This document shows positions 19,912 to 63,316 of a DNA stretch of 64,000 nt, piece after piece. The stretch comes from a virus. The stretch is taken from the IMG/VR virus record IMGVR_UViG_3300045988_117852, positions 75,613-139,612 of that record; one strand, written 5' to 3'. The translations under genes and the position numbers were made by a program. The notes beneath the pieces are model-generated. The model ran no database searches. It was not told the origin of the DNA and was given only the letters and a program-made list of their open reading frames with translations. Positions within the stretch are counted from its first letter, which is position 1; every line of letters begins with the position of its first letter.

Positions 19912-20277
19912 ATGGACAATCAAATATTAGAAATGTTAGCAGCGAATCAATCAAATCAAATGCATATTGATGTACTTGATTTACACTCATCAGAAATGTC
20001 ATCGTGGTTTCTGAGTGAATATAAGATTCGAGCAGATGATAGAAAGATAAAGATCTATGGCAAAGATAAAGATCTTTCATATCATTGGATCGAATTTATT
20101 CAAGATGAGAATTTGTTCTCTCATATTAGGCAGGACGACATATTTGACATAATCAAATGCCTGCAATTTACATACAAAGAGAGATACAATGTTGGAATAA
20201 AAATACAGACAATAAAAAAGAAAGCAGAAGTCTTTGGTAAAACTTCTACTTTCACACAAACTAAAAATTTCAACTAA
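19912..20277 (+). CDS. hypothetical protein
   Basis: ORF. Confidence 0.4.
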   Translation: MDNQILEMLAANQSNQMHIDVLDLHSSEMSSWFLSEYKIRADDRKIKIYGKDKDLSYHWIEFIQDENLFSHIRQDDIFDIIKCLQFTYKERYNVGIKIQTIKKKAEVFGKTSTFTQTKNFN

Positions 20278-20470
20278 ACAAATCATAGATAACAAAAAAA
20301 GATTTTTTGAATCTACCGTGTTGGCAGCACGATAGAAAATCGAATTTGATATTTAGAATTGTTTAATCTGAAAGGATAATAATATCCTTAAAATCATTAT
20401 AACAATTCTAAACATGTTCGTCAACATGAAAATTTTTCCAAAAAACTACAATTAAATACAGGAGTGATGT

Positions 20471-33625: not shown

Positions 33626-33763
33626 GGAAACATAGCTCAGTTGGTAGAGCAGGCAATACATACATTCTTTTTCTACCTCCGTATAAGTATTTTTATATTA
33701 TTTACATTTTAATTTTTCATCACATATAAATTGCCGACGCAGGTTCGATCCCTGTTGTTTCCA
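33626..33763 (+). tRNA. tRNA-like gene interrupted by a ~70-nt AT-rich insertion in the anticodon arm (anticodon uncertain)
   Basis: Perfect 7-bp acceptor stem (GGAAACA/TGTTTCC), canonical D-arm GCTCAGTTGGTAGAGC, T-arm GCAGG-TTCGATC-CCTGT, and anticodon-stem halves GGCAA (33652-56) and TTGCC (33731-35) 74 nt apart. Confidence 0.55.
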
Positions 33764-38365: not shown

Positions 38366-39973
38366 ATGACAGCTAAAGATAACACAATGGTAATTACTAG
38401 AAAAATCGCTTTGATTCCTGTCGCAAGTGAGCGAAAAGAATGGAAGAAAAGAATCAATTCTTTCTTAGAAAAAGATTTTCCAAGGAAAATTGAAGCAAAG
38501 AAGAAGCAGATCAAGAATACAAGCAAACCAGAAAAGAAAGACGGGTATAAACAGCAGCTCACAGAATTAGAAAAGCAATATGAAGATTTCAAAGAAAATA
38601 GAATCGAAGAATATACTCAGAAAATGGTTAACGATTATACATATGGTCTTGTGAGAGATGCAATGGAGAGCGAAGCAAGACGAAAGAACTACATTTTGTC
38701 TTACATATACACAAAAATGGTACAGGATGGAGTTGGATATATGCCAACATTGAAAGATAAATATACATGGATTAAAGAAAATATTAATGTTGCATATAGA
38801 CGAAAAGGAAGTAATAAAGGAAGCATCTTTGATGATGTTGACATTGACAATCCATTAGGTGGATACGGAACATGTTTCTCTCAGATATTAACAAGCAAGA
38901 TCAAAGATTTGGTTAAACAGGGATTGTTAGACGGCAAAGTGTCAATTCCGAATTTTAAAATTGACTCACCGTTTACAATTGCAAAAGCGTATTTTGATCT
39001 ATATCACGAATATGAAGATATAACAGAATTAAAGAAAAATATTCAAAATTCTGATTGTAAATTGTATTGTGGATTAGGTAACAAAGGTATTCCGACCATT
39101 GCAAATTTCAAAGTAAATATTGGACACAAAGGAAATAGAGATGAGTTGATTTCTACATTGTTAAGAATATTTACTGGAGAATACGAGATTTGTGGAAGTA
39201 CAATGCAGATTTCTAAAACAAAAATTATTTTAAATTTATCAATTAGAATTCCTAAAACACAACTTGAATTAGATGAGGACACTGTAGTTGGTGTCGATCT
39301 TGGAGTTGCAATTCCAGCGGTATGTTCTTTGAATAATAACAAATATAAGAGAGAGTATATTGGTAGTAGTGACGATTTTATTAGAATGAGAACGAAATTA
39401 CAGCATGAGAAACAGCAGTTACAGAAAGCGTTAAAAATGTCAAAAGGCGGACATGGAAGAAAAAGAAAGTTGTTGGCATTAGAAAGATGTAAAAAGAAAG
39501 AATATAACTTTGTTGAAACATACTGTCACAAAGTAAGCAAGAAAGTGGTTGATTTTGCGGTCAAGAATAAAGCGAAATATATCAATGTAGAAAATCTTTC
39601 GGGATATGATTCAAGTAAATTCATTTTAAGAAATTGGAGTTTTTATAAACTTCAGCAATACATAGAATATAAAGCTGCAAAATATGGCATTGAAGTTAGA
39701 AAAGTAAATCCTTCATTTACATCTCAAGTGTGTAGTTTCTGCGGACATTGGGAAGACGGGCAGAGAAAAGATCAAGCAACATTTGTTTGTGGTAATCCTG
39801 ATTGTGAAAGTCATAAGTTGCATATGGTAAATGCAGACTACAATGCATCAAGAAATATTGCGATGTCAACATTATTTACAAGTGATAAATTTCAATTTTG
39901 TAAAAAGACAATGCAAGATGCGGCTGAGTATTACGGTATTCAATTAGATAATGAAGATCAATTAGCAGCGTAA
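38366..39973 (+). CDS. TnpB/Cas12-like RNA-guided-nuclease-family protein (RuvC split domain plus zinc finger), 535 aa
   Basis: RuvC-I VGVDLGV, RuvC-II …YINVENL…, OrfB Zn-ribbon CSFCGH…CGNPDC, RuvC-III NADYNASRNIA. The N-terminus MVITRKIALIP resembles the TnpB start. There is no upstream left-end/TnpA. Confidence 0.7.
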   Translation: MTAKDNTMVITRKIALIPVASERKEWKKRINSFLEKDFPRKIEAKKKQIKNTSKPEKKDGYKQQLTELEKQYEDFKENRIEEYTQKMVNDYTYGLVRDAMESEARRKNYILSYIYTKMVQDGVGYMPTLKDKYTWIKENINVAYRRKGSNKGSIFDDVDIDNPLGGYGTCFSQILTSKIKDLVKQGLLDGKVSIPNFKIDSPFTIAKAYFDLYHEYEDITELKKNIQNSDCKLYCGLGNKGIPTIANFKVNIGHKGNRDELISTLLRIFTGEYEICGSTMQISKTKIILNLSIRIPKTQLELDEDTVVGVDLGVAIPAVCSLNNNKYKREYIGSSDDFIRMRTKLQHEKQQLQKALKMSKGGHGRKRKLLALERCKKKEYNFVETYCHKVSKKVVDFAVKNKAKYINVENLSGYDSSKFILRNWSFYKLQQYIEYKAAKYGIEVRKVNPSFTSQVCSFCGHWEDGQRKDQATFVCGNPDCESHKLHMVNADYNASRNIAMSTLFTSDKFQFCKKTMQDAAEYYGIQLDNEDQLAA

Positions 39974-40001
39974 ATTATATGAAAATATATGGCATGTTTT
40001 G

Positions 40002-40042
40002 GAGGGAGTTCGATGCTCCCTCAGCCATAAAATAATATGGCT
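40002..40042 (+). ncRNA. two adjacent perfect hairpins (GAGGGAG-N7-CTCCCTC and AGCCATA-N6-TATGGCT) directly 3' of the nuclease gene; a candidate guide-RNA scaffold element or terminator
   Basis: Read directly. No U-tract follows them, and they sit at the start of the first repeated unit. Confidence 0.35.
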
Positions 40043-40135
40043 ATGCCAAGAGATAGGAAAATTTTTCACTCACTAAAATTTGTGTAATTGAACAGAACGT
40101 AAAGTTCTGCATTGTATACATAATAAAGATTTGAG

Positions 40136-40237
40136 GTTTGAGAATTATTGAAAATTACACAGATACAAAACCATTCCCTGTATGCATAAGCACAATCCCA
40201 TGTTTGAGAACTATTGAAAATTACATAAAATGTATGG
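40136..40237 (+). CRISPR. CRISPR-like mini-array 1: 36-nt repeat, 30-nt spacer, degenerate terminal repeat
   Basis: Repeat GTTTGAGAATTATTGAAAATTACACAGATACAAAAC (40136-40171). Spacer CATTCCCTGTATGCATAAGCACAATCCCAT (40172-40201). The second copy from 40202 matches 24/25 nt, then diverges. Confidence 0.55.
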
Positions 40238-40375
40238 CATGTTTTGAGAAATTTTATATCCAATGTAAATTTTCTGATCATAAGAAATATGATTATGCCA
40301 AAAGTGAGATTTAAAAATAATACTCACTAAAACCTATGTGATAAAGTATCAAAATTGGACAAGGATGAAATTGAG

Positions 40376-40543
40376 GTTTGATACCTATTAAAAATTACAT
40401 AGGTACAAAACATGTTTTGATCTTCAGCACCTGATACAAAGTTTGATACCTATTAAAAATTACATAGGTACAAAACACAATCGGCATCCGATCTTTTCGC
40501 TGCCTGAGTTTGATACCTATTAAAAATTACACAAAGTGTGTGG
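40376..40543 (+). CRISPR. CRISPR-like mini-array 2: two identical 36-nt repeats, 29- and 31-nt spacers, degenerate third repeat
   Basis: Repeat GTTTGATACCTATTAAAAATTACATAGGTACAAAAC at 40376-40411 and 40441-40476. Unique spacers at 40412-40440 and 40477-40507. The third copy from 40508 matches 25 nt, then diverges. Confidence 0.65.
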
Positions 40544-40642
40544 TGTGTTCTGGAGATTTTATCTCGTCTATCAAATAGGTAGATACGCCAAAAGTGAGAC
40601 ATGAATGTACTCACTAAAATCTATGTTAGTTGAATATTTGAG

Positions 40643-40732
40643 GTTTAAGACCTATCAAATTTAACACAGGTACAGAACTCTGACGTGCTTCATTTTATTC
40701 GATCGTGCGTAAAAGACCTATCAAATTTAACA
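40643..40732 (+). CRISPR. CRISPR-like mini-array 3: 36-nt repeat, 30-nt spacer, degenerate terminal repeat
   Basis: Repeat GTTTAAGACCTATCAAATTTAACACAGGTACAGAAC (40643-40678). Spacer TCTGACGTGCTTCATTTTATTCGATCGTGC (40679-40708). Partial repeat at 40709-40732. Confidence 0.5.
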
Positions 40733-43222: not shown

Positions 43223-44008
43223 ATGTCAAGGAAAAATACAAGAGAATTTGAACTTGCTTTTAGTAAACATAGAGACCCAGATTGGGAAGCCGATGTAGAG
43301 ATTTATGGAAAAAGGGTTTTAAAAACAGTACGTGGTATTTGTCTTGGTGATGAATGGACAGAAATTAATTCATTGAGAAACAAGGATCATATTGAGTTAG
43401 CGGAGATGTTTTGTAATTTTGACGATCATAATCCACATTTTAATCTGAGCCCTCAATATGTTTTATTGGATAAGTTTTCTATAACATCTCCTGCGATATT
43501 GTGTAGTGATGAAATAGTTATGAAAAATGGCAAAGTTTTGAATGTTGATAATATATCAGCAAATCTATCAGGCAAAAATGAAGTATACAAGATTTATTCA
43601 AATACAAAATATGATGATTATACATATTATGATGAATCAGAAAATTTAGTATTTGAATTAGCATCAAAAGATGTTGATAAGATAATCCGATTTATGAGAG
43701 ATTTTATGGATGAATTACGTGATGCTAAATTAACAAAGTATAGAAATAGTAATTTTTTATGGAGACTATTTAACACTCTTGATATGCCACATTTTAAACA
43801 AACATATTCCATGAATGATTTGAAAAAATATACAAACACATTTAGATCTGAGGTTTGTGGTCAACTAAAAGAAACTATTCCTAATTTTAAATATACTGGA
43901 GTTCCAATGGGCGGGTATATTGAAAGATATTTTGAATTAAGTTATGTAGAGGAAGTACAAAAATTCATTAAAGAACAGGAGGCAAAGAGATGTGAAGAAA
44001 CTAAATGA
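43223..44008 (+). CDS. hypothetical protein (261 aa)
   Basis: ORF. Confidence 0.45.
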   Translation: MSRKNTREFELAFSKHRDPDWEADVEIYGKRVLKTVRGICLGDEWTEINSLRNKDHIELAEMFCNFDDHNPHFNLSPQYVLLDKFSITSPAILCSDEIVMKNGKVLNVDNISANLSGKNEVYKIYSNTKYDDYTYYDESENLVFELASKDVDKIIRFMRDFMDELRDAKLTKYRNSNFLWRLFNTLDMPHFKQTYSMNDLKKYTNTFRSEVCGQLKETIPNFKYTGVPMGGYIERYFELSYVEEVQKFIKEQEAKRCEETK

Positions 44009-44525
44009 TGAACAGCGAAGGCTGATTGAAGATAATTACTCTTTGATTTGGCATTTACATGAAAAATATTTTACAAAGTTTACAGATTTTGATACATATA
44101 TGGATCTTGGTCGTATGGCAATTTGTAAAGCAGCATTAAAATGGGACGAGTCTAAAGGAACTTTTGGTACATATCTCTTCTGGGTATTACGTTCAGAAGT
44201 GAATCAATATTATACAAAATGGCACAGACTAACAGAAAAAATGAATAGGAATGCTGAATCGTTAGATACACCATTGGCAGGATACGAACCAGAAGATGAT
44301 ATTACAATCGGAACAACACTGATGAGTAAAGATAATGTAGAGGATGAGGTGCTTACAAAGGTACATTTTCAAAATGAGTTTGATAAATTGGCACCGAGAA
44401 ATAAAAAGATTATCACGTTAAAGCAGAAAGGTTTAACACAAAGACAAATTGCAAGTCAGCTTGGAATCACTCATCAGTGGGTTAGTCAAAATATTGTACA
44501 GTTTAAGAAAGCATTATGTGGATAA
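43992..44525 (+). CDS. sigma-70-family RNA polymerase sigma factor
   Basis: Region-2-like …YMDLGRMAICKAALKWDESKG.FGTYLFWVLRSEV and region-4 HTH LTQRQIASQLGITHQWVSQNI. GTG start as called. Confidence 0.6.
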   Translation: MKKLNDEQRRLIEDNYSLIWHLHEKYFTKFTDFDTYMDLGRMAICKAALKWDESKGTFGTYLFWVLRSEVNQYYTKWHRLTEKMNRNAESLDTPLAGYEPEDDITIGTTLMSKDNVEDEVLTKVHFQNEFDKLAPRNKKIITLKQKGLTQRQIASQLGITHQWVSQNIVQFKKALCG

Positions 44526-50879: not shown

Positions 50880-51419
50880 ATGTCGTTGAAATTAAATGAC
50901 GAACAGAGAAAATTGGTAGAACAAAATCATAATTTGATTTACTCTGCTATGACAAAATGCGGTATCCGCAGACAAGATTTTGATGACTATTATGGATTCG
51001 CTGCCATTGGGTTGTGTAAGGCAGCAATTGATTATGATGAATCCAAAGCTAAATCATTCTCTACATATGCATATAAATGTATGCAAAAAGAAATTATAGC
51101 ATATACTCGATGGAGATTTGCAGATAAAAGAGATGAACGACTTACCTTATCGTACAATCAGTTAATGAATGATTTAGATGAAGACGAAAAAGAATATTCT
51201 TTTTTGTTAGCTGATAAAAAAAATAATGAAAAAAAATTAATTTTCTTTTTGTGTTTTGATGAGCAAATGCGAATACTAAATAATAAGGACAGGTTAATTA
51301 TTAATTTAAAGGCAAAAGGGTATACGAACGAAGAAATAGGAAATACCCTTGGTGTTACATATCAAGCAATTCAATATCAATTGAAAAAAATTAAAAATAA
51401 ATTAATCCCATCCTTATAA
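50880..51419 (+). CDS. sigma-70-family RNA polymerase sigma factor (second copy)
   Basis: Region-2 YGFAAIGLCKAAIDYDESKAKSFSTYAYKCM and region-4 HTH YTNEEIGNTLGVTYQAIQYQL. Same architecture as 43992..44525. Confidence 0.6.
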   Translation: MSLKLNDEQRKLVEQNHNLIYSAMTKCGIRRQDFDDYYGFAAIGLCKAAIDYDESKAKSFSTYAYKCMQKEIIAYTRWRFADKRDERLTLSYNQLMNDLDEDEKEYSFLLADKKNNEKKLIFFLCFDEQMRILNNKDRLIINLKAKGYTNEEIGNTLGVTYQAIQYQLKKIKNKLIPSL

Positions 51420-51629
51420 TTTCAAAAAAGCTTTTTGCTTTTATTATTTTTTTGACGCATTTGTTATAAACGTACTAGAACGATTATAGCAATGTAAGAC
51501 GATCAGATAAAATTATTTTTTTGTTCCTGTTGGCTTTGGCAGAGTTGACAGTGGATATAAATTGATGACTTATTCACAAACTAAAAACTAACTAAACAAA
51601 TTTAATAACAAGAGGAGGAATTCTATTTA

Positions 51630-58900: not shown

Positions 58901-60162
58901 TTATGGCAGGAAAAGAAGTATTTTGTTCAGTCTGCGGTTTATCATCTACTTTGGACGGACATTTTTGGAAAGAAAAGAAGTTGTGCAACAGACACAATAT
59001 GCAGTTAGAAAAACATGGAAAACTGTTAGATAAAGATATAGTAATCCCTAAAAAGAGACATAGATGGACTCCAGAAGAAGAAACCAGATTAGAAGAGTTG
59101 TATAAACAAGGAGTTTCTTTTGAAAAAATTAGTAAACAAATGAATCTATCCGTGGCAGCCATAGCGGCTCGAAGTCGTCATTTGAATCTTGGCAATAAGT
59201 ATATGAGGTCTAATAATCCTAATTTTAAAGCCACATATCAGGATTATGATTGGTGTTATGAAAGATATGTTGTTAAGGGAATGACTCATCAAGAAATGGC
59301 AGATGAATGTGGTGCCTCGTTAAGAGTTATTCAGAAATGGTGTTCTGAAGTTCATAAATTAAATTGTTGGACTTTCAAAAACAATAAGACATTAACCGAT
59401 AAACAGTATCAAATTATTTTATTTGGCACATTAGGAGATGGGCATATTGATAAGAGAGAGATGCAACCTTTGTATATTGAATGTCATTCTATAGCAGAAA
59501 AGGATTACGTGTTTTGGAAATATGAAGAATTAAAAGATTTATGTAACTCTGAGCCAAAGTATTATGAAGGTGGCTATAAAGATTTTGGTTCTGGTACAAA
59601 GTATTGGTGTAAACCACATTACAGATTTGAGACAAGAATTATTAATCAATTGAAGGACATTCGAGACATGCCAAGAATCAATAAGATTTGGCAATTGAAT
59701 GAATTTGGATTATCTCTTCATTGCTTAGACGATGGATGCAGAGGTAAATCAGCGTGGGAATTATGTTTGGCAGAATATACTCAGCAAGAAATTGATTTAT
59801 ATATCAAGCTGTGTAAAAAGAGATTTGGGTTATATGCTAAACAGCAGACAGATAAAAGATATATAAGATTTGATTCAGATTCAAGTAGAATTATTGATCA
59901 AATTATTTTAAACAATATTCCTAATTCGCTTGACATTATCAAAAAGAAGATATTAGAAAACGATAAAATTTCTAAAAAAGTAAGATACATTTATGTTGTC
60001 ATGCAGAACGGAGAACAGATTGGTTTATCTACATATTGTAGATCTCATGGTATTCCATATGAAAAGACAAGAAAATATGTCATTGAGCACAATATCTCTC
60101 GAATTCAAGAAGCTGATCTACTAAATAGATTAAAAGCTGGAGGATTAATGAATGCGGTATAA
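58897..60162 (+). CDS. LAGLIDADG-family homing endonuclease with N-terminal zinc-finger/HTH region
   Basis: Two LAGLIDADG-like motifs (ILFGTLGDGHID and LSLHCLDDGCRG), plus CSVCG…C and an HTH (VSFEKISKQMNLSVAAIAARSRHL). Confidence 0.55.
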   Translation: MIMAGKEVFCSVCGLSSTLDGHFWKEKKLCNRHNMQLEKHGKLLDKDIVIPKKRHRWTPEEETRLEELYKQGVSFEKISKQMNLSVAAIAARSRHLNLGNKYMRSNNPNFKATYQDYDWCYERYVVKGMTHQEMADECGASLRVIQKWCSEVHKLNCWTFKNNKTLTDKQYQIILFGTLGDGHIDKREMQPLYIECHSIAEKDYVFWKYEELKDLCNSEPKYYEGGYKDFGSGTKYWCKPHYRFETRIINQLKDIRDMPRINKIWQLNEFGLSLHCLDDGCRGKSAWELCLAEYTQQEIDLYIKLCKKRFGLYAKQQTDKRYIRFDSDSSRIIDQIILNNIPNSLDIIKKKILENDKISKKVRYIYVVMQNGEQIGLSTYCRSHGIPYEKTRKYVIEHNISRIQEADLLNRLKAGGLMNAV

Positions 60163-63100
60163 CAATTATCATAAACACGATCATGTGTCAAATATCTTTA
60201 CCCCAGATACAAATACTAAACAAGAAGAGTATATTCTTAAAGCATTGGAGTATGGGCATACAAGTTATTATAGTACGAATCATGGCAGTTTTGGAGATAT
60301 CTTTGAAGCCAGAACATTGTGTAATAAGTATGGATTGCGTTGTATTGCAGGCATCGAAGGATATATTGTCCCAAATGCGTCGCAAAAAGACAAAAGGAAT
60401 TATCATATTATAGTGATCCCTAAAACCGATGAAGCCAGAAAGAAGATGAATTATGTATCAAGTATGGCAAACATCAAAGGGTTTTATTATAAACCAAGAT
60501 TTTTTTTATCTGATTTATTAAAACTTGATCCCAATGATGTTTATATTACAACTGCATGTGTAGCAGGATTATTACGAGATGAGGATTCAATTAATGAGAT
60601 TTTTATGCCTCTATATAAGCATTTTAAAGAAAATGTAATGCTAGAAGTTCAGACTCATGATGATCCGTTGCAAATTGAAATCAATAAAAAGGCAATATAT
60701 CTGTCTGATCAATATGGGTTAAGCTTAATTGCTGCAAATGATTCACACTATATTGACGAATCAGGCAAAGAAGAACGTCTGGAATTATTGCGAGGTAAAC
60801 ATATCAATTACGGCAGTGAAGACGATTTTATATTAGATTATCCTACTGCTGAAACAATGATTGAAAGATTCAAAAAACAAGGCGTTTTGACAGATAGACA
60901 AATCTCAGATGCATTAAATAACACATTGTTGTTTGATGAATGTGAAGAAATACAACTCGATTATTCAATTAAAATGCCTACGATTTATCCTAACTTGACT
61001 CCCGAACAAAGAGTGGGTCTTCTAAAAAAAGAAGTAAATAAACGGTTCAAGGAGATTCGAAAAGAAGAACATATTGAAGGAGAAGAGTTTAAAAAATATA
61101 AAGATGGAATTCGATATGAGATGAAAATCATCGAGGATACTAATGATGAAATACATACAGCGGACTATTTTTTGTTTAATGAGAAAAATGTAGATCTTGC
61201 AGTTAATAAATATGGTGGTGTATTGACTCGTGGTGGAAGAGGTAGTTGCGGTTCCTTCTATATAAATAGGATATTGGGAATGACACAACTAGATAGATTT
61301 AAAATTAATCTTCCGCTTTTCCCAGACAGATTTGCTTCTACTGCCAGATTGCTAGAGAATCGCTCATTGCCCGATATAGATTTTAACGTAAAATCCCAAG
61401 AACCATTTATTAAAGCTTCAAGGGAATTGCTTGGTGAACACGGGTGTTATCCAATGTATGCACCAGGAACCATGCAAATATCTGAAGCATTTAGAAATGT
61501 ATGTAGATCTAAGAATATGTCATTTGACGAATTTAATCATGTGGCAAAAAATCTGGAAGAATATCAAGATGATCCGAAATGGAAACCGATTATCGAAGAG
61601 GCAAATCGCTATGTTGGAACAATTATATCTGGTTCTGTACATCCTTGCGCCCATATTTTAAGCAACACTAATTTGCTTTATGAGTACGGTGTTACTCGTT
61701 TAGGTGAAAACGTATGTGTTTTAATTACTTCATCTGAAGCAGATGAATATAAGGTACTTAAAAACGATTATCTTATCGTCACGGTTTGGAAGCTTATTGA
61801 CGAAACATTTAAAGAGATTGGAATTCCGATTATTAAGGCAAATGAATTATTGGATAAAATTAAAGATGATCAGAGAATATGGGATTTATTTAAAAATGGT
61901 ATTACATGTACTTTAAATCAGGTTGATAGCGACAATGGATGTAGACAAGCAAAACAGTATGGTATTTCGTCATTTGAGGATGGCGCCCATATTGCAGCAG
62001 CCATAAGACCGTCTTTTGATTCATGGAGAGAACAGTTTTTAGACAGAAAACCATATACAACTGGTTCAGATCAGCTTGACGATGTTTTGAAAGATACTCA
62101 TGGATACATTTTATTTCAAGAATCATTAATGCAATATTTTGACTGGTTGGGGGTTAGCCCAGCTGAATCTATTGGTTTAATTAAGAAAATTTCCAAGAAA
62201 AAAATTAAACAATCGGATTTTGATAATCTTGAGGAAAGAATCAAAAAGCAATGGATTATTAATACTGGCTCAGAAGAAATGTTTTCCGAAACATGGCATT
62301 TGGTACAAAGTTGTATGAGCTACGGATTTTGTTCAGCCCATGCAGCAGCAACCTCATTGGACATGTGTTATGGAGCATATCTAAAGGTCAATTATCCTTA
62401 CGAATACTACAGTGTTTGTTTCAATAATTACGTTGGAGACAAAGAACGAACGAATAAACTAACAAATGAGTTAGAGTATTTTGGTATTAAATTAAGCGAC
62501 ATTAAGTTTAGACACTCTAACTCAAAATATTCTTATGATAAAGAGGGTCATACAATATTCAAAGGCATGTCGTCCATTAAATTTGTTGGAGATAATGTTG
62601 GAGAAGAACTGTATGCATTACGAGATAATCAATATGATTCTTTTATAGATTTGTTGCAAGACATATCTAATACATCTGTCAATTCTAAACAGTTAGATAT
62701 TTTAATTAAATTAGATTTCTTTTCTGAATTTGGAGACATTAATTATCTACTTAAACAGGTTGAGTGCTATGACAAATTCTATGGCAGAAAACAGTTTACA
62801 ATTTCGAAGCTCCAAAAAGAAGGCGAAGATATTGAATTAATCAAAAAGTATTGTCAGAAACAGACAGAAAAAACATTGAAAGAATTTGATTATATTGGAT
62901 TTTTGAAAGATATGACATCAAGTATGGCATATTCACTAGTTTCAATAACTGAACGGATGGATTATCAGAAAGAATATATTGGTTACATCAGTTACATTAA
63001 CCCAAACGTCGGCAAACGATATTACTATGTTAAAGATTTATCTGTAACAAAATCCATCGTGAACATCCAACTATATGAAATTTACTCTGGAAAAACACAA

Positions 63101-63316
63101 AAAGTAAAAATGTGGACAACCCAATATAAGAAGAATCCATTCGATGAAGGAGATATTCTATATCTGAAATCAGTTGAGAAGAAACATAAAAAAGAACCAA
63201 CTGGAGAGATCAATCAAAAAACAGGAAAGAAAATCTACAAAGATGTGCCAGATAAATTTGAGTTTTGGCTTAAGAATTTCACTATTAAAAATGACGTAGA
63301 GGAGGAATTAGTATAA
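60152..63316 (+). CDS. dnaE: DNA polymerase III alpha subunit (DnaE family, PHP plus polymerase core)
   Basis: The PHP N-terminus YHKHDHVSNI…G.TSYYSTNHGSFGDI is the DnaE hallmark; 1054 aa. Confidence 0.7.
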   Translation: MRYNNYHKHDHVSNIFTPDTNTKQEEYILKALEYGHTSYYSTNHGSFGDIFEARTLCNKYGLRCIAGIEGYIVPNASQKDKRNYHIIVIPKTDEARKKMNYVSSMANIKGFYYKPRFFLSDLLKLDPNDVYITTACVAGLLRDEDSINEIFMPLYKHFKENVMLEVQTHDDPLQIEINKKAIYLSDQYGLSLIAANDSHYIDESGKEERLELLRGKHINYGSEDDFILDYPTAETMIERFKKQGVLTDRQISDALNNTLLFDECEEIQLDYSIKMPTIYPNLTPEQRVGLLKKEVNKRFKEIRKEEHIEGEEFKKYKDGIRYEMKIIEDTNDEIHTADYFLFNEKNVDLAVNKYGGVLTRGGRGSCGSFYINRILGMTQLDRFKINLPLFPDRFASTARLLENRSLPDIDFNVKSQEPFIKASRELLGEHGCYPMYAPGTMQISEAFRNVCRSKNMSFDEFNHVAKNLEEYQDDPKWKPIIEEANRYVGTIISGSVHPCAHILSNTNLLYEYGVTRLGENVCVLITSSEADEYKVLKNDYLIVTVWKLIDETFKEIGIPIIKANELLDKIKDDQRIWDLFKNGITCTLNQVDSDNGCRQAKQYGISSFEDGAHIAAAIRPSFDSWREQFLDRKPYTTGSDQLDDVLKDTHGYILFQESLMQYFDWLGVSPAESIGLIKKISKKKIKQSDFDNLEERIKKQWIINTGSEEMFSETWHLVQSCMSYGFCSAHAAATSLDMCYGAYLKVNYPYEYYSVCFNNYVGDKERTNKLTNELEYFGIKLSDIKFRHSNSKYSYDKEGHTIFKGMSSIKFVGDNVGEELYALRDNQYDSFIDLLQDISNTSVNSKQLDILIKLDFFSEFGDINYLLKQVECYDKFYGRKQFTISKLQKEGEDIELIKKYCQKQTEKTLKEFDYIGFLKDMTSSMAYSLVSITERMDYQKEYIGYISYINPNVGKRYYYVKDLSVTKSIVNIQLYEIYSGKTQKVKMWTTQYKKNPFDEGDILYLKSVEKKHKKEPTGEINQKTGKKIYKDVPDKFEFWLKNFTIKNDVEEELV

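What the first reader, a model, noticed from the sequence alone, without database searches (positions are those of the whole stretch)
40172..40708. Spacers are markedly more GC-rich than the surrounding phage DNA
Spacer 40477–40507 (ACAATCGGCATCCGATCTTTTCGCTGCCTGA) is about 52% GC. The others are about 40–47%, in a genome region far more AT-rich. This suggests the spacers derive from foreign targets such as the host chromosome, a plasmid or a competing phage, not local sequence. That fits a phage using mini-arrays for inter-MGE conflict or host manipulation. Repeat-end plus spacer-start at 40405–40420 also forms a palindrome (CAAAACATGTTTTG) that could affect processing.
Basis: seen in the sequence. 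Interest (0 to 1): 0.6.

Follow-up and report, generated by a model that had tools for sequence, protein, structure and literature searches.

The report
Phage Cas12f mini-arrays target small plasmids
The four "GC-rich spacers" belong to a real CRISPR locus carried by a large phage: a miniature Cas12f nuclease followed by three guide-RNA modules. At least one spacer matches a family of small circular plasmids perfectly, so the phage appears to be fighting plasmids, although the GC argument itself does not hold.

Summary
The spacers are real and only modestly GC-rich: 43, 34.5, 52 and 43% against 33.5% for the window (pooled P about 0.006-0.01). One is at background.

They sit just 3' of an intact 535-aa Cas12f gene (type V-F, V-U3 lineage). 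They lie in three tandem modules, each made of a tracrRNA-like scaffold, a 36-nt repeat, one or two spacers and a truncated repeat. Covariation between each scaffold and its own repeat supports a Cas12f-type dual-anti-repeat, pseudoknotted guide.

Spacer 3 (40477-40507) matches 31/31 a circular ~13-kb plasmid-like contig carrying ParA, Rep and resolvase genes. It matches 30/31 in two relatives of that contig. Nine of 30 spacers, from phages of four to five Cas12f lineages (one rests on a single borderline match), hit this plasmid family. None of 360 shuffled controls did.

The plasmids are as AT-rich (33.8% GC) as the phage. GC excess is therefore not a signature of foreign composition; the protospacers are locally GC-rich sites.

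Spacers 1, 2 and 4 have no target in the databases I could search. No cas1, cas2 or cas4 is present in the window.

This is a new variant of a known kind.

The parts
38366..39973 (+). cas12f gene (535 aa). RuvC residues D311, E409 and D491 are intact, as are the zinc-finger cysteines C456, C459, C475 and C480.
   Evidence: PDB 8hr5 (CnCas12f1) E 4.7e-66; 9nzo/9nzr (Al3Cas12f) E 3.5e-65. Pfam Cas12f1-like_TNB and OrfB_IS605. PADLOC Cas12u3 at 7.7e-98 and Cas12f at 1.2e-94. Motif positions.
39982..40089 (+). Module 1 tracrRNA-like scaffold. The 5' anti-repeat GTTTTG is at 39996-40001 and the 3' anti-repeat ATTTGTGTAATT at 40078-40089.
   Evidence: Repeat families D3 and D6 and inverted repeat I4; pair table and covariation; conserved motif ACTCACTAAAA at 40068. 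Stem D is weakened in this module (A-A and U-C mismatches).
40136..40171 (+). Module 1 repeat (36 nt): GTTTGAGAATTATTGAAAATTACACAGATACAAAAC
40172..40201 (+). Spacer S1 (30 nt, 43.3% GC). It differs in all four close relatives. No target was found.
40202..40225 (+). Module 1 terminal truncated repeat (the first 24 nt of the repeat only). Together with the junction it forms a sigma-70-like -35/-10 pair (40204-40231) pointing into scaffold 2.
   Evidence: promoter-like site (a consensus match only)
40227..40342 (+). Module 2 tracrRNA-like scaffold. The 5' anti-repeat GTTTTG is at 40241-40246 and the 3' anti-repeat ACCTATGTGAT at 40332-40342.
   Evidence: Folded as one transcript, the module reproduces stems B, C and D and both repeat:anti-repeat helices, z = -4.0.
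40376..40411 (+). Module 2 repeat 1 (36 nt)
40412..40440 (+). Spacer S2 (29 nt, 34.5% GC). Its first 8 nt complete the palindrome CAAAACATGTTTTG with the repeat end. No target was found.
40441..40476 (+). Module 2 repeat 2 (36 nt, identical to repeat 1)
40477..40507 (+). Spacer S3 (31 nt, 51.6% GC). Protospacer on the plasmid family: 31/31 in L025, 30/31 in L005 and L006, 26/31 in L035. 5' flank ...ACTTCG.
40508..40531 (+). Module 2 terminal truncated repeat (24 nt)
40532..40628 (+). Module 3 tracrRNA-like scaffold. The 5' anti-repeat GTTCTG is at 40547-40552 and compensates the CAGAAC end of repeat 3. The 3' anti-repeat ATCTATGTTA is at 40619-40628.
40643..40678 (+). Module 3 repeat (36 nt): GTTTAAGACCTATCAAATTTAACACAGGTACAGAAC
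40679..40708 (+). Spacer S4 (30 nt, 43.3% GC). No target was found.
40709..40732 (+). Module 3 terminal truncated, degenerate repeat: GTAAAAGACCTATCAAATTTAACA

Best explanation
Window 38366-40732 is an autonomous type V-F CRISPR-Cas locus carried by a large phage, possibly a plasmid-prophage, probably of Clostridia. It consists of a nuclease-competent Cas12f gene followed by three tandemly duplicated, diverged guide-RNA modules. Each module encodes its own tracrRNA-like scaffold, a short linker, a cognate 36-nt repeat, one or two 29-31-nt spacers, and a terminal repeat truncated after 24 nt.

Shown in silico: each scaffold pairs with its own repeat through two anti-repeat segments. The scaffold 5' end pairs with the last 6 nt of the repeat. 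The scaffold 3' end pairs with repeat positions about 18-29. A pseudoknot-type stem lies around two or three internal hairpins. This is the layout I recall for solved Cas12f guide RNAs.

Inferred: the + strand is transcribed, either as one precursor or from module promoters. Each scaffold:repeat-spacer unit loads Cas12f, acting either as a dual guide or as a natural single guide. The complex cuts double-stranded DNA carrying the protospacer next to a T-rich 5' motif.

Shown: spacer S3 is identical to a site at the 3' end of a 73-codon ORF beside the parA/RHH partition genes of a family of 12.5-17.6-kb circular plasmid-like replicons. Spacers of phages with Cas12f only 55-68% identical to this one hit other sites of the same family.

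Inferred: the phage uses Cas12f to destroy or exclude these plasmids in the shared host. The reason is unresolved. The plasmids may interfere with the phage as a defence carrier or satellite. Alternatively, a plasmid-like prophage may be competing with co-resident plasmids.

The GC excess of the spacers reflects the choice or retention of locally GC-rich protospacers in equally AT-rich targets. It does not reflect a foreign base composition.
For: Cas12f identity and intact active site.

Seven repeats and three scaffolds occur only here in the 64 kb; 0 of 100 shuffles reached these counts.

Scaffold:repeat structure. Of the cells in 35 proposed pairs, 97.6% form standard pairs, against 28-48% when the 3' partner is slid by 1-3 columns. 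Eight pairs carry compensatory changes, for example GTTTTG/CAAAAC against GTTCTG/CAGAAC. 0 of 500 shuffles reached the covariation score. The thermodynamic fold of module 2 as one RNA reproduces the same helices, z = -4.0.

Genuine CRISPR behaviour. In four phages whose Cas12f is 97-99.6% identical to the window's, scaffolds and repeats are conserved while spacers are swapped.

The same multi-module architecture occurs in relatives whose Cas12f is 58-68% identical; the 53-55% relatives carry one or two scaffold-plus-array units.

Target. S3 matches 31/31 in L025 and 30/31 in L005 and L006, with no flanking repeats. Nine of 30 spacers hit the plasmid family with six or fewer mismatches, an indel, or an exact 20-nt block. 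All 360 shuffled and 24 reversed controls had at least 8 mismatches.

Plasmid nature. The contigs carry ParA, an RHH protein, a Rep of the HTH_36/DUF6017 type, a resolvase and no phage structural genes. Rep homologues occur only on contigs of 17.7 kb or less. Most of the full-length contigs checked (8 of 10) have terminal overlaps, as expected of circular replicons.

Phage nature of the window. It encodes a DNA polymerase, a DnaB-like helicase, a RecJ-like exonuclease, NAMPT and an anti-repressor, with almost all genes on one strand. Relatives in IMG/VR lie on contigs of 154-166 kb.

Shared cell. A 63-nt stretch is 98% identical between phage and plasmid.

The 5' flanks are T-rich, with a purine at position -1 in 8 of 9 cases.
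Against: There are no expression data. Strand, RNA ends and processing are all inferred. The promoter scan found fewer sites than in shuffles (3 against 6.8), and the one suggestive site is only a consensus match.

Only one of the four spacers in the window has a known target.

The TTC/TTT motif is not at one fixed offset, and n = 9 is spread over at least four Cas12f lineages.

No cas1, cas2 or cas4 is present in the window, so how spacers turn over is unexplained.

Stem D of module 1 is weakened in this window, so that module may be decaying.

That phage and plasmids share a host is inferred, not shown. The plasmid cargo gives no clear reason for the conflict: the radical-SAM genes hit viperin models only through the generic core and well below cut-off.

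Module 3 folded alone is not unusually stable (z = -1.3).
Confidence: 0.8

Rival explanations
1. One reading: the spacers are GC-rich because they were taken from a compositionally different, GC-richer source such as the host chromosome or a GC-richer element. On this view GC content itself marks them as foreign.
For: Pooled spacer GC is 43.8% against 33.5% for the window. The family-wide mean is 38.1% against 32.5%. Three of the four window spacers have no identified source, so a GC-richer source for them is not excluded.
Against: The only identified source, the plasmid family, has 33.8% GC. Its matched protospacers are local GC peaks within AT-rich DNA. S2 is at background. S3 and S4 seeds have no exact match in 185,579 species-representative genomes.
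Confidence: 0.07
2. Host-dependent viral mini-arrays or RNA decoys. On this view the repeats mimic a host CRISPR system. The units either borrow host Cas proteins to attack rivals or act as RNA anti-CRISPRs, and the neighbouring cas12f-like gene is irrelevant.
For: The arrays have one or two spacers and no adaptation genes, as in virus-borne mini-arrays reviewed in PMC11656645.
Against: An intact Cas12f gene lies immediately upstream. Each array has its own co-varying anti-repeat scaffold. The gene, scaffolds and arrays travel together in relatives down to 53% protein identity. The spacers with known targets hit plasmids, not related viruses. Host repeats could not be examined.
Confidence: 0.04
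3. The gene is a transposon TnpB of an IS200/IS605-type element, and the downstream repeats are its omega-RNA and transposon-end region or some other non-CRISPR tandem duplication. On this view the 'spacers' are just diverged duplicate sequence.
For: Pfam OrfB_IS605 and NCBIfam guided_TnpB match the protein. The three modules clearly arose by tandem duplication.
Against: The best matches by far are solved Cas12f effectors and Cas12f/Cas12u3 models. The 29-31-nt segments between conserved repeats are replaced wholesale between phages that are about 97-99% identical elsewhere. Several of them match an unrelated replicon at up to 31/31. The locus sits at the same place in syntenic phage genomes.
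Confidence: 0.03
4. The GC excess is a sampling accident with no biological cause. The spacers are ordinary draws from AT-rich targets.
For: The window has only four spacers. One is at background, and two are within the top 8-16% of random 30-mers. Spacers shared between relatives inflate the family-wide test.
Against: The excess persists in 20 spacers outside the window (36.9% against 32.2%, P = 0.02) and in 30 overall (P = 0.0009). Four of five mapped protospacers lie at or above the 80th GC percentile of their plasmids.
Confidence: 0.15

Closest known systems
Type V-F1 (formerly V-U3) CRISPR-Cas12f systems of Bacillota and Bacteroidota with solved structures: CnCas12f1 (PDB 8hr5) and Al3Cas12f (9nzo/9nzr; PMC13186708)
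   Same: The effector is about 500 aa with a RuvC plus zinc-finger C-terminal half (E about 1e-65). The repeats are 36 nt. A long tracrRNA lies next to the gene. The 5' flank is T-rich, as reported for the Al3Cas12f family. V-F arrays are reported to be short.
   Different: Here the locus is on a large phage. The tracrRNA is triplicated, and each copy is tied to its own one- or two-spacer array with a diverged repeat and a truncated terminal repeat. Scaffold and repeat are only 14-46 nt apart on the same strand, so a natural single-guide transcript is possible.
Tandem guide RNAs or 'omega-RNA arrays' of Cas12f-derived, nuclease-dead sigma-factor-associated TnpB/dCas12f (PMC10691335; PMC12259090)
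   Same: The whole scaffold-plus-guide unit is duplicated in tandem downstream of a Cas12f-lineage gene. The array is minimised, with a half repeat next to the scaffold.
   Different: Those proteins have lost RuvC activity, have no separate tracrRNA and act in transcription next to rpoE. Here the catalytic triad is intact, full repeat-spacer-repeat units persist, the spacers match a foreign replicon, and no sigma gene is adjacent (the nearest starts at 43992).
Vibrio phage ICP1 type I-F CRISPR-Cas directed against the PLE satellite (recalled from memory: Seed et al. 2013; summarised in PMC11656645)
   Same: A phage-borne, self-sufficient CRISPR system whose spacers are aimed at one family of small host-resident mobile elements.
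   Different: ICP1 carries a multi-subunit class 1 system with an adaptation module. Its target is a chromosomal island that is known to block the phage. Here the system is a single miniature effector with no adaptation genes in the 64 kb, and the target's effect on the phage is unknown.
Virus-borne mini-CRISPR arrays and solitary repeat units (reviewed in PMC11656645)
   Same: Arrays of one or two spacers on a viral genome, used in conflicts between elements.
   Different: Those rely on the host's Cas proteins, have repeats identical to the host's and mostly target related viruses. Here the effector and tracrRNAs are encoded beside the arrays, and the known targets are plasmids.
Plasmid-borne type IV and V-M systems used in competition between plasmids (PMC11656645)
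   Same: A mobile-element-borne CRISPR system without an adaptation module whose spacers are enriched for plasmid targets.
   Different: Those act by binding or transcriptional repression and sit on plasmids. Here the carrier looks like a phage and the effector has an intact nuclease site. The carrier's polymerase is, however, closest (42%) to those of Clostridioides phiCD211-like phages and Clostridium botulinum phage c-st, which I recall as plasmid-like prophages, so the ecological logic may be similar.

Membership tests
Type V-F CRISPR-Cas (Cas12f) | A single small effector (about 400-700 aa) with a split RuvC domain and a zinc-finger/TNB insertion, related in sequence to characterised Cas12f | tested here: met
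   535 aa. 8hr5 E 4.7e-66 and 9nzo E 3.5e-65. PF07282 at 2.4e-19. PADLOC Cas12u3 at 7.7e-98 and Cas12f at 1.2e-94. D311, E409, D491 and four cysteines present.
Type V-F CRISPR-Cas (Cas12f) | An adjacent CRISPR array: direct repeats separated by unique spacers that vary between strains | tested here: met
   Seven repeats and four spacers at 40136-40732. Spacers are replaced between relatives whose Cas12f is 97-99.6% identical to the window's, while repeats are kept.
Type V-F CRISPR-Cas (Cas12f) | A tracrRNA whose anti-repeat(s) pair with the repeat | tested here: met
   In silico only. Two anti-repeat helices per module; 97.6% of cells paired; 8 compensatory pairs; slid controls 28-48%; MFE fold agrees. 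Expression and RNA ends not tested.
Type V-F CRISPR-Cas (Cas12f) | A 5' PAM next to protospacers (T-rich or C-rich, depending on the orthologue) | tested here: inconclusive
   The four bases 5' of nine protospacers are TTCG, TTTC, TCCA, TTTA, TTTA, TTTG, CTAA, TTAA and TAAA. They are T-rich with a purine at -1 in 8 of 9. However, they come from several orthologues, the sample is small and the targets are AT-rich.
Type V-F CRISPR-Cas (Cas12f) | RNA-guided double-stranded DNA cleavage by an asymmetric homodimer on one guide RNA | not testable with these tools
   Needs biochemistry or a structure.
Type V-F CRISPR-Cas (Cas12f) | An adaptation module (cas1, cas2, cas4). As I recall (not checked here), the archaeal Cas14 loci have one and the V-U3-lineage loci typically do not, so it is not strictly defining. 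| tested here: not met
   No Cas1, Cas2 or Cas4 model was matched by any of 88 ORFs of at least 70 aa in the 64-kb window. The rest of the roughly 150-166-kb genome was not seen.
Host-dependent virus-borne mini-CRISPR arrays / RNA anti-CRISPR repeat units | No effector of its own; repeats copy the host's CRISPR repeats | tested here: not met
   cas12f and three cognate scaffolds are adjacent. Host repeats could not be examined because the host is unknown.
Host-dependent virus-borne mini-CRISPR arrays / RNA anti-CRISPR repeat units | Spacers mostly target closely related viruses | tested here: not met
   No matches in IMG/VR apart from the arrays themselves. Nine spacers match plasmids. One borderline 23/30 match of a relative's spacer to this phage's cas12f is consistent with chance.
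IS200/IS605 TnpB with omega-RNA | The guide is the DNA flanking the transposon end, fused to a single scaffold that overlaps the gene's 3' end; the element is mobile and multi-copy | tested here: not met
   Guides sit between repeats, are swapped between otherwise near-identical loci and match a foreign replicon. There is a single copy in the window. Presence of tnpA was not specifically tested.
Nuclease-dead Cas12f / sigma-associated TnpB with tandem guide RNAs | Inactivated RuvC and linkage to an rpoE-type sigma gene | tested here: not met
   The catalytic D, E and D are intact. The neighbours are small phage ORFs. Sigma-like ORFs lie about 4 and 11 kb downstream (43992-44525; 50880-51416), not adjacent.
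Nuclease-dead Cas12f / sigma-associated TnpB with tandem guide RNAs | Scaffold-plus-guide units repeated in tandem | tested here: met
   Three modules in the window. Three to five modules in relatives L017, L018 and L038.

The most novel reading that the evidence does not exclude
A widespread clade of 140-230-kb gut phages, or plasmid-prophages of Clostridia, carries a self-contained Cas12f system. Its guides are built as tandem 'scaffold + mini-array' cassettes, effectively natural single-guide units, and are exchanged or renewed without Cas1-Cas2. Across at least four divergent Cas12f lineages these cassettes are persistently aimed at one family of 12.5-17.6-kb circular plasmids. Those plasmids carry a 63-nt piece that is 98% identical to a phage sigma-factor-like gene. 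This hints that the plasmids are phage-responsive parasites or defence carriers, which would make the pairing a class 2 analogue of the ICP1-PLE arms race.
Probability: 0.25. Interest if true: 0.8.

Novelty: new variant of a known kind. Interest (0 to 1): 0.6.

Why it matters
Phage-encoded CRISPR systems are known, but few have an identified, recurrent target.

Here a miniature nuclease of the Cas12f family, which is used in genome editing, sits on a large phage with its guide RNAs organised as three self-contained scaffold-plus-spacer cassettes. Spacers from several divergent relatives converge on one family of small plasmids that appears in many metagenome samples.

This matters in three ways:
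- It offers a tractable phage-versus-plasmid conflict to study.
- It gives a natural series of co-varying tracrRNA:repeat pairs that could inform Cas12f guide design and orthogonal multiplexing.
- It provides a living intermediate for the proposed path from omega-RNA to tracrRNA plus crRNA, and back to tandem single guides.

It also shows that spacer GC content is a poor proxy for spacer origin.

Tried and rejected
Protospacer searches that found nothing:
- BLASTN of all four spacers against GenBank phages and PLSDB plasmids at E up to 10: no match.
- Self-targeting: no match of 23/30 or better in the window.
- Exact seed scans of IMG/VR (S3 22 nt; S4, S1 and S2 5' 20 nt; S1 and S4 3' 20 nt): only the arrays of relatives.
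- S3 and S4 seeds of 22 nt in GTDB representative genomes: none.

S1, S2 and S4 could therefore not be searched there.

Megablast of the whole plasmid L005 against PLSDB and GenBank phages found nothing.

A defence function for the plasmid cargo was not established. PADLOC and NCBIfam gave only sub-threshold radical-SAM core hits to viperin models.

The 15-nt complementarity between S3 and cas12f (39759-39773) was judged to be chance.

The 23/30 match of relative L019's spacer to this cas12f was judged borderline, since about 0.3-0.7 such hits are expected by chance.

The Rfam gathering-threshold scan found no known RNA family in the locus.

The promoter/terminator scan was uninformative.

The idea that S2 derives from a rival tracrRNA, because it shares a 10-nt CATGTTTTGA, was dropped. 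No tracr variant among the loci matches it beyond those 10 nt.
Full report
**1. Observation**

The interval 40172-40708 runs from the first base of the first spacer to the last base of the fourth. The spacers are:
- S1, 40172-40201, 30 nt, 43.3% GC.
- S2, 40412-40440, 29 nt, 34.5% GC.
- S4, 40679-40708, 30 nt, 43.3% GC.

The window as a whole is 33.5% GC, the intergenic region 30.9% and the repeats about 25%.

S3 is in the top 1.3% of all 30-nt windows. S1 and S4 are in the top 8-16%. S2 is at background. Pooled, the spacers are 43.8% GC, a value reached by 0.6% of random sets of four 30-mers.

The statement is therefore right for S3, wrong for S2, and describes a modest excess rather than a marked one. 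The palindrome CAAAACATGTTTTG is present at 40406-40419.

**2. What the region is**

The spacers lie directly 3' of ORF 38366-39973 (535 aa, + strand). This ORF matches:
- the solved Cas12f effectors CnCas12f1 (8hr5, E 4.7e-66) and Al3Cas12f (9nzo, E 3.5e-65);
- Pfam Cas12f1-like_TNB and OrfB_IS605;
- the PADLOC models Cas12u3 and Cas12f (E 1e-98 and 1e-94).

Its RuvC residues D311, E409 and D491 and its four zinc-finger cysteines are intact.

The 784-nt non-coding stretch that follows consists of three tandem, diverged copies of one unit. Each unit has:
- a conserved scaffold of about 100-115 nt;
- a linker of 14-46 nt ending in TTGAG;
- a 36-nt repeat;
- one spacer (modules 1 and 3) or two (module 2);
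- a terminal repeat cut off after 24 nt.

Nothing like the scaffolds or repeats occurs anywhere else in the 64 kb.

**3. The scaffolds behave as tracrRNAs**

I aligned the three modules from this window and from three close relatives, giving 12 sequences. I then tested a structure read off the sequence.

In that structure the scaffold 5' segment GTTTTG pairs with the last six bases of the repeat, CAAAAC. The scaffold 3' segment pairs with repeat positions about 18-29. A stem (TGGCAT/ATGCCA) encloses two hairpins and crosses the first helix, which makes a pseudoknot. A further GTGAG/CTCAC hairpin precedes the 3' anti-repeat.

Of 375 cells, 97.6% form standard pairs, against 28-48% when the partners are slid by 1-3 columns. 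Eight of 35 pairs show compensatory double changes, and no shuffle reaches the covariation score.

The clearest cases are these:
- Module 3 has GTTCTG opposite CAGAAC where modules 1 and 2 have GTTTTG opposite CAAAAC.
- The 3' anti-repeats TTTGTGTAATT, CCTATGTGAT and TCTATGTTA are each matched to their own repeat.

Folded as one RNA, module 2 recovers all the nested helices (z = -4.0). Module 3 recovers them too, but is not unusually stable (z = -1.3).

From memory, two repeat:anti-repeat duplexes plus a pseudoknot is the architecture of solved Cas12f guide RNAs. The literature I read confirms long multi-stem tracrRNAs encoded beside the gene (PMC13186708).

Transcription, direction and RNA ends are inferred, not shown. 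The only promoter-like site of note (40204-40231) is made by the truncated repeat of module 1 and points into scaffold 2.

**4. It behaves as CRISPR**

Three IMG/VR phage contigs (29, 154 and 166 kb) encode a Cas12f that is 97-99.6% identical. Their scaffolds and repeats are nearly identical to the window's, but the spacers differ:
- S1 is different in all four genomes.
- S2 to S4 are shared with one contig and replaced by another set in the other two.

No Cas1, Cas2 or Cas4 model is matched by any of 88 ORFs in the window. How spacers are renewed is therefore unexplained. Cassette exchange by recombination between the conserved flanks is one possibility.

**5. Carrier and family**

The window encodes a DnaE-like polymerase, a DnaB-like helicase, a RecJ-like exonuclease, NAMPT and an anti-repressor. 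Almost all of its genes are on one strand.

The polymerase is closest (42% identity) to those of Clostridioides phiCD211-like phages and Clostridium botulinum phage c-st. From memory, these are plasmid-like prophages.

The Cas12f has more than 1,300 relatives at E < 1e-30. Many lie on contigs of 140-233 kb.

I examined six relatives whose Cas12f is 53-68% identical to the window's. All carry tracr-like scaffolds with short arrays of diverged repeats downstream and/or upstream of the gene. Three of them have three to five modules.

**6. Targets**

All four spacers gave nothing in GenBank phages, PLSDB or the window itself. Seed scans of IMG/VR found only the arrays themselves.

It found two contigs that carry the sequence without flanking repeats, matching 30/31, and one short contig with the same array.

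The first contig (L005, 13,022 bp) has a 55-bp terminal overlap and is therefore circular. It encodes ParA, an RHH protein, a replication initiator (HTH_36/DUF6017), a serine resolvase, an HNH endonuclease, a SprT-like protein and a radical-SAM protein. It has no phage structural genes.

Homologues of its Rep occur only on contigs of 17.7 kb or less, in many samples. Eight of the ten full-length contigs checked have assembler-type terminal overlaps. This is a family of small circular plasmids, or plasmid-like elements. One member (L025, 13,160 bp) carries a perfect 31/31 protospacer for S3 with the 5' flank TTATACTTCG.

I scanned 30 spacers, from the window and nine related phage loci, against 24 plasmid loci totalling 270 kb. 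Nine hit:

| Spacer | Match to the plasmid family |
|---|---|
| S3 (window) | 0 mismatches |
| Second spacer of L001/L002 | 2-3 mismatches |
| Fourth spacer of L001/L002 | 4 mismatches |
| L017, two spacers | 3 mismatches each |
| L038 | 2 mismatches |
| L038 | one indel |
| L038 | exact 20-nt block |
| L019 | 6 mismatches (borderline) |

In contrast, 360 shuffled and 24 reversed spacers never had fewer than 8 mismatches.

The sites are scattered over the plasmid. They include the 73-codon ORF beside the partition genes, the 403-aa gene and its downstream region, a 95-aa ORF and a radical-SAM gene.

The flanks are T-rich and end in a purine in 8 of 9 cases. This is compatible with the T-rich PAMs of related Cas12f, but the evidence is too thin to define a PAM.

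**7. The GC question**

The plasmids average 33.8% GC, the same as the phage. Five mapped protospacers lie at the 97th, 97th, 88th, 80th and 28th percentile of plasmid 30-mer GC.

Family-wide, spacers average 38.1% GC against 32.5% for their loci (P = 0.0009). Those with plasmid hits average 42.3%.

The excess therefore seems real. It reflects which sites become or remain spacers, not a foreign base composition. Possible causes are guide stability in an AT-rich setting, conserved coding sites or an acquisition bias. None of these was tested.

**8. Mechanism, with shown and inferred steps**

Shown:
- the effector family and its intact active site;
- three co-varying scaffold:repeat pairs;
- spacer turnover between strains;
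- exact and near-exact protospacers on a circular plasmid family.

Inferred:
- + strand transcription;
- assembly of Cas12f with each scaffold:crRNA pair, or with a single-transcript guide, given the 14-46-nt linkers;
- PAM-dependent cleavage of the plasmid;
- a shared host, supported by similar GC, Clostridia-like affinities and a 63-nt stretch 98% identical between phage and plasmid.

Why the phage attacks the plasmid is open. The plasmid cargo shows no clear defence system.

**9. Comparison and novelty**

By sequence and locus features this is a member of the type V-F (V-U3-lineage) Cas12f systems.

It differs from the described loci I could check in three ways:
- it is phage-borne;
- the tracrRNA is multiplied, with each copy tied to its own mini-array and diverged repeat;
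- spacers recurrently target one plasmid family.

The nearest precedent for tandem scaffold-plus-guide units is the nuclease-dead, sigma-associated Cas12f derivatives (PMC10691335, PMC12259090). Those differ in lacking nuclease activity and a separate tracrRNA.

Phage CRISPR aimed at a resident element recalls ICP1 against PLE (from memory; reviewed in PMC11656645). [quoted passage not shown]

I could not read the main survey of phage-encoded CRISPR systems (Al-Shayeb et al. 2022), which is not in the library. This clade may already be listed there. I rate the finding a new variant of a known kind.

**10. Verdict**

Interest is 0.6.

Noticed in passing
window 51230-51292 (inside ORF 50880-51416); L005 6471-6533; L008 3893-3955: A 63-nt stretch inside a sigma-factor-like phage ORF (it encodes ...KKLIFFLCFDEQMRILNNKDR...) is 98% identical to a conserved element in the large intergenic region of the target plasmids. 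Other family members carry one or two copies at 80-87% identity. In the plasmids it looks promoter-like (TTGATG, 17 nt, AATAAT) and lies upstream of the 403-aa gene. It points to recent exchange between phage and plasmid, or to regulatory mimicry.
   Followed up: partly
window 20254-20334 and 51561-51619; L005 12535-12619; L013 2321-2368; L023 2150-2206; L008 10817-10863: A leader-like motif (CACAAACTAAAAAyTwmACTAAACAAAT...) upstream of two phage genes also occurs upstream of small ORFs on the plasmids (75-85% identity over 46-87 nt). It could be a shared promoter or 5' leader, or an AT-rich coincidence.
   Followed up: no
L001 6047-6076 versus L002 4716-4745; plasmid sites such as L031 498-527: The second spacers of two phages that are about 98% identical differ at 3 of 30 positions. 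That is far more than their flanks differ, and each variant base is found in some plasmid allele of the same protospacer. This suggests repeated acquisition at one site, or spacer updating, in a locus without Cas1-Cas2.
   Followed up: partly
window 40204-40231: The truncated terminal repeat of module 1 plus the junction forms a sigma-70-like promoter (TTGAGA, 16 nt, TAAAAT; 10 of 12 matches). Transcription from it would start at the 5' end of scaffold 2. Truncated repeats may therefore double as promoters. The equivalent junction before module 3 is weaker.
   Followed up: partly
window 40406-40421 versus 40238-40247: The repeat end plus the first 9 nt of spacer S2 (CATGTTTTGA) is identical to the 5' anti-repeat region of scaffold 2. 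In the predicted fold, the first bases of the S2 guide extend the helix with the scaffold, which might compete with the pseudoknot stem. The feature is specific to this spacer and is absent from relatives with other spacers.
   Followed up: partly
L019 2789-2818 (spacer) versus window 38736-38765 (- strand, within cas12f): A spacer of a distant relative (Cas12f 55% identical) matches this phage's cas12f gene at 23/30, but has no comparable match in its own cas12f. This would mean one phage targeting another phage's CRISPR gene. However, about 0.3-0.7 such hits are expected by chance.
   Followed up: partly
window 33626-33763 (+): Rfam reports a tRNA match (43 bits, E 7e-6) spanning 138 nt, whereas ARAGORN finds no tRNA in the window. 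It may be an intron-containing or otherwise unusual phage tRNA.
   Followed up: no
L019 2753-2958: The array upstream of cas12f in this relative contains an exact 103-nt tandem duplication (repeat-spacer-repeat, twice), so the same spacer is present twice.
   Followed up: no
window 40480-40492: Spacer S3 contains a 5-bp hairpin followed by a T-run (ATCGG-CAT-CCGAT CTTTTCG), which the scan flagged as terminator-like on both strands. It is inherited from the plasmid protospacer, and its effect on the guide is unknown.
   Followed up: no
window 60152-63316: The phage's DnaE-like polymerase is closest (42% identity) to those of Clostridioides phiCD211/phiCDIF1296T-like phages and Clostridium botulinum phage c-st. 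From memory, these large phages persist as plasmid-like prophages. This bears on why this phage might compete with plasmids.
   Followed up: partly
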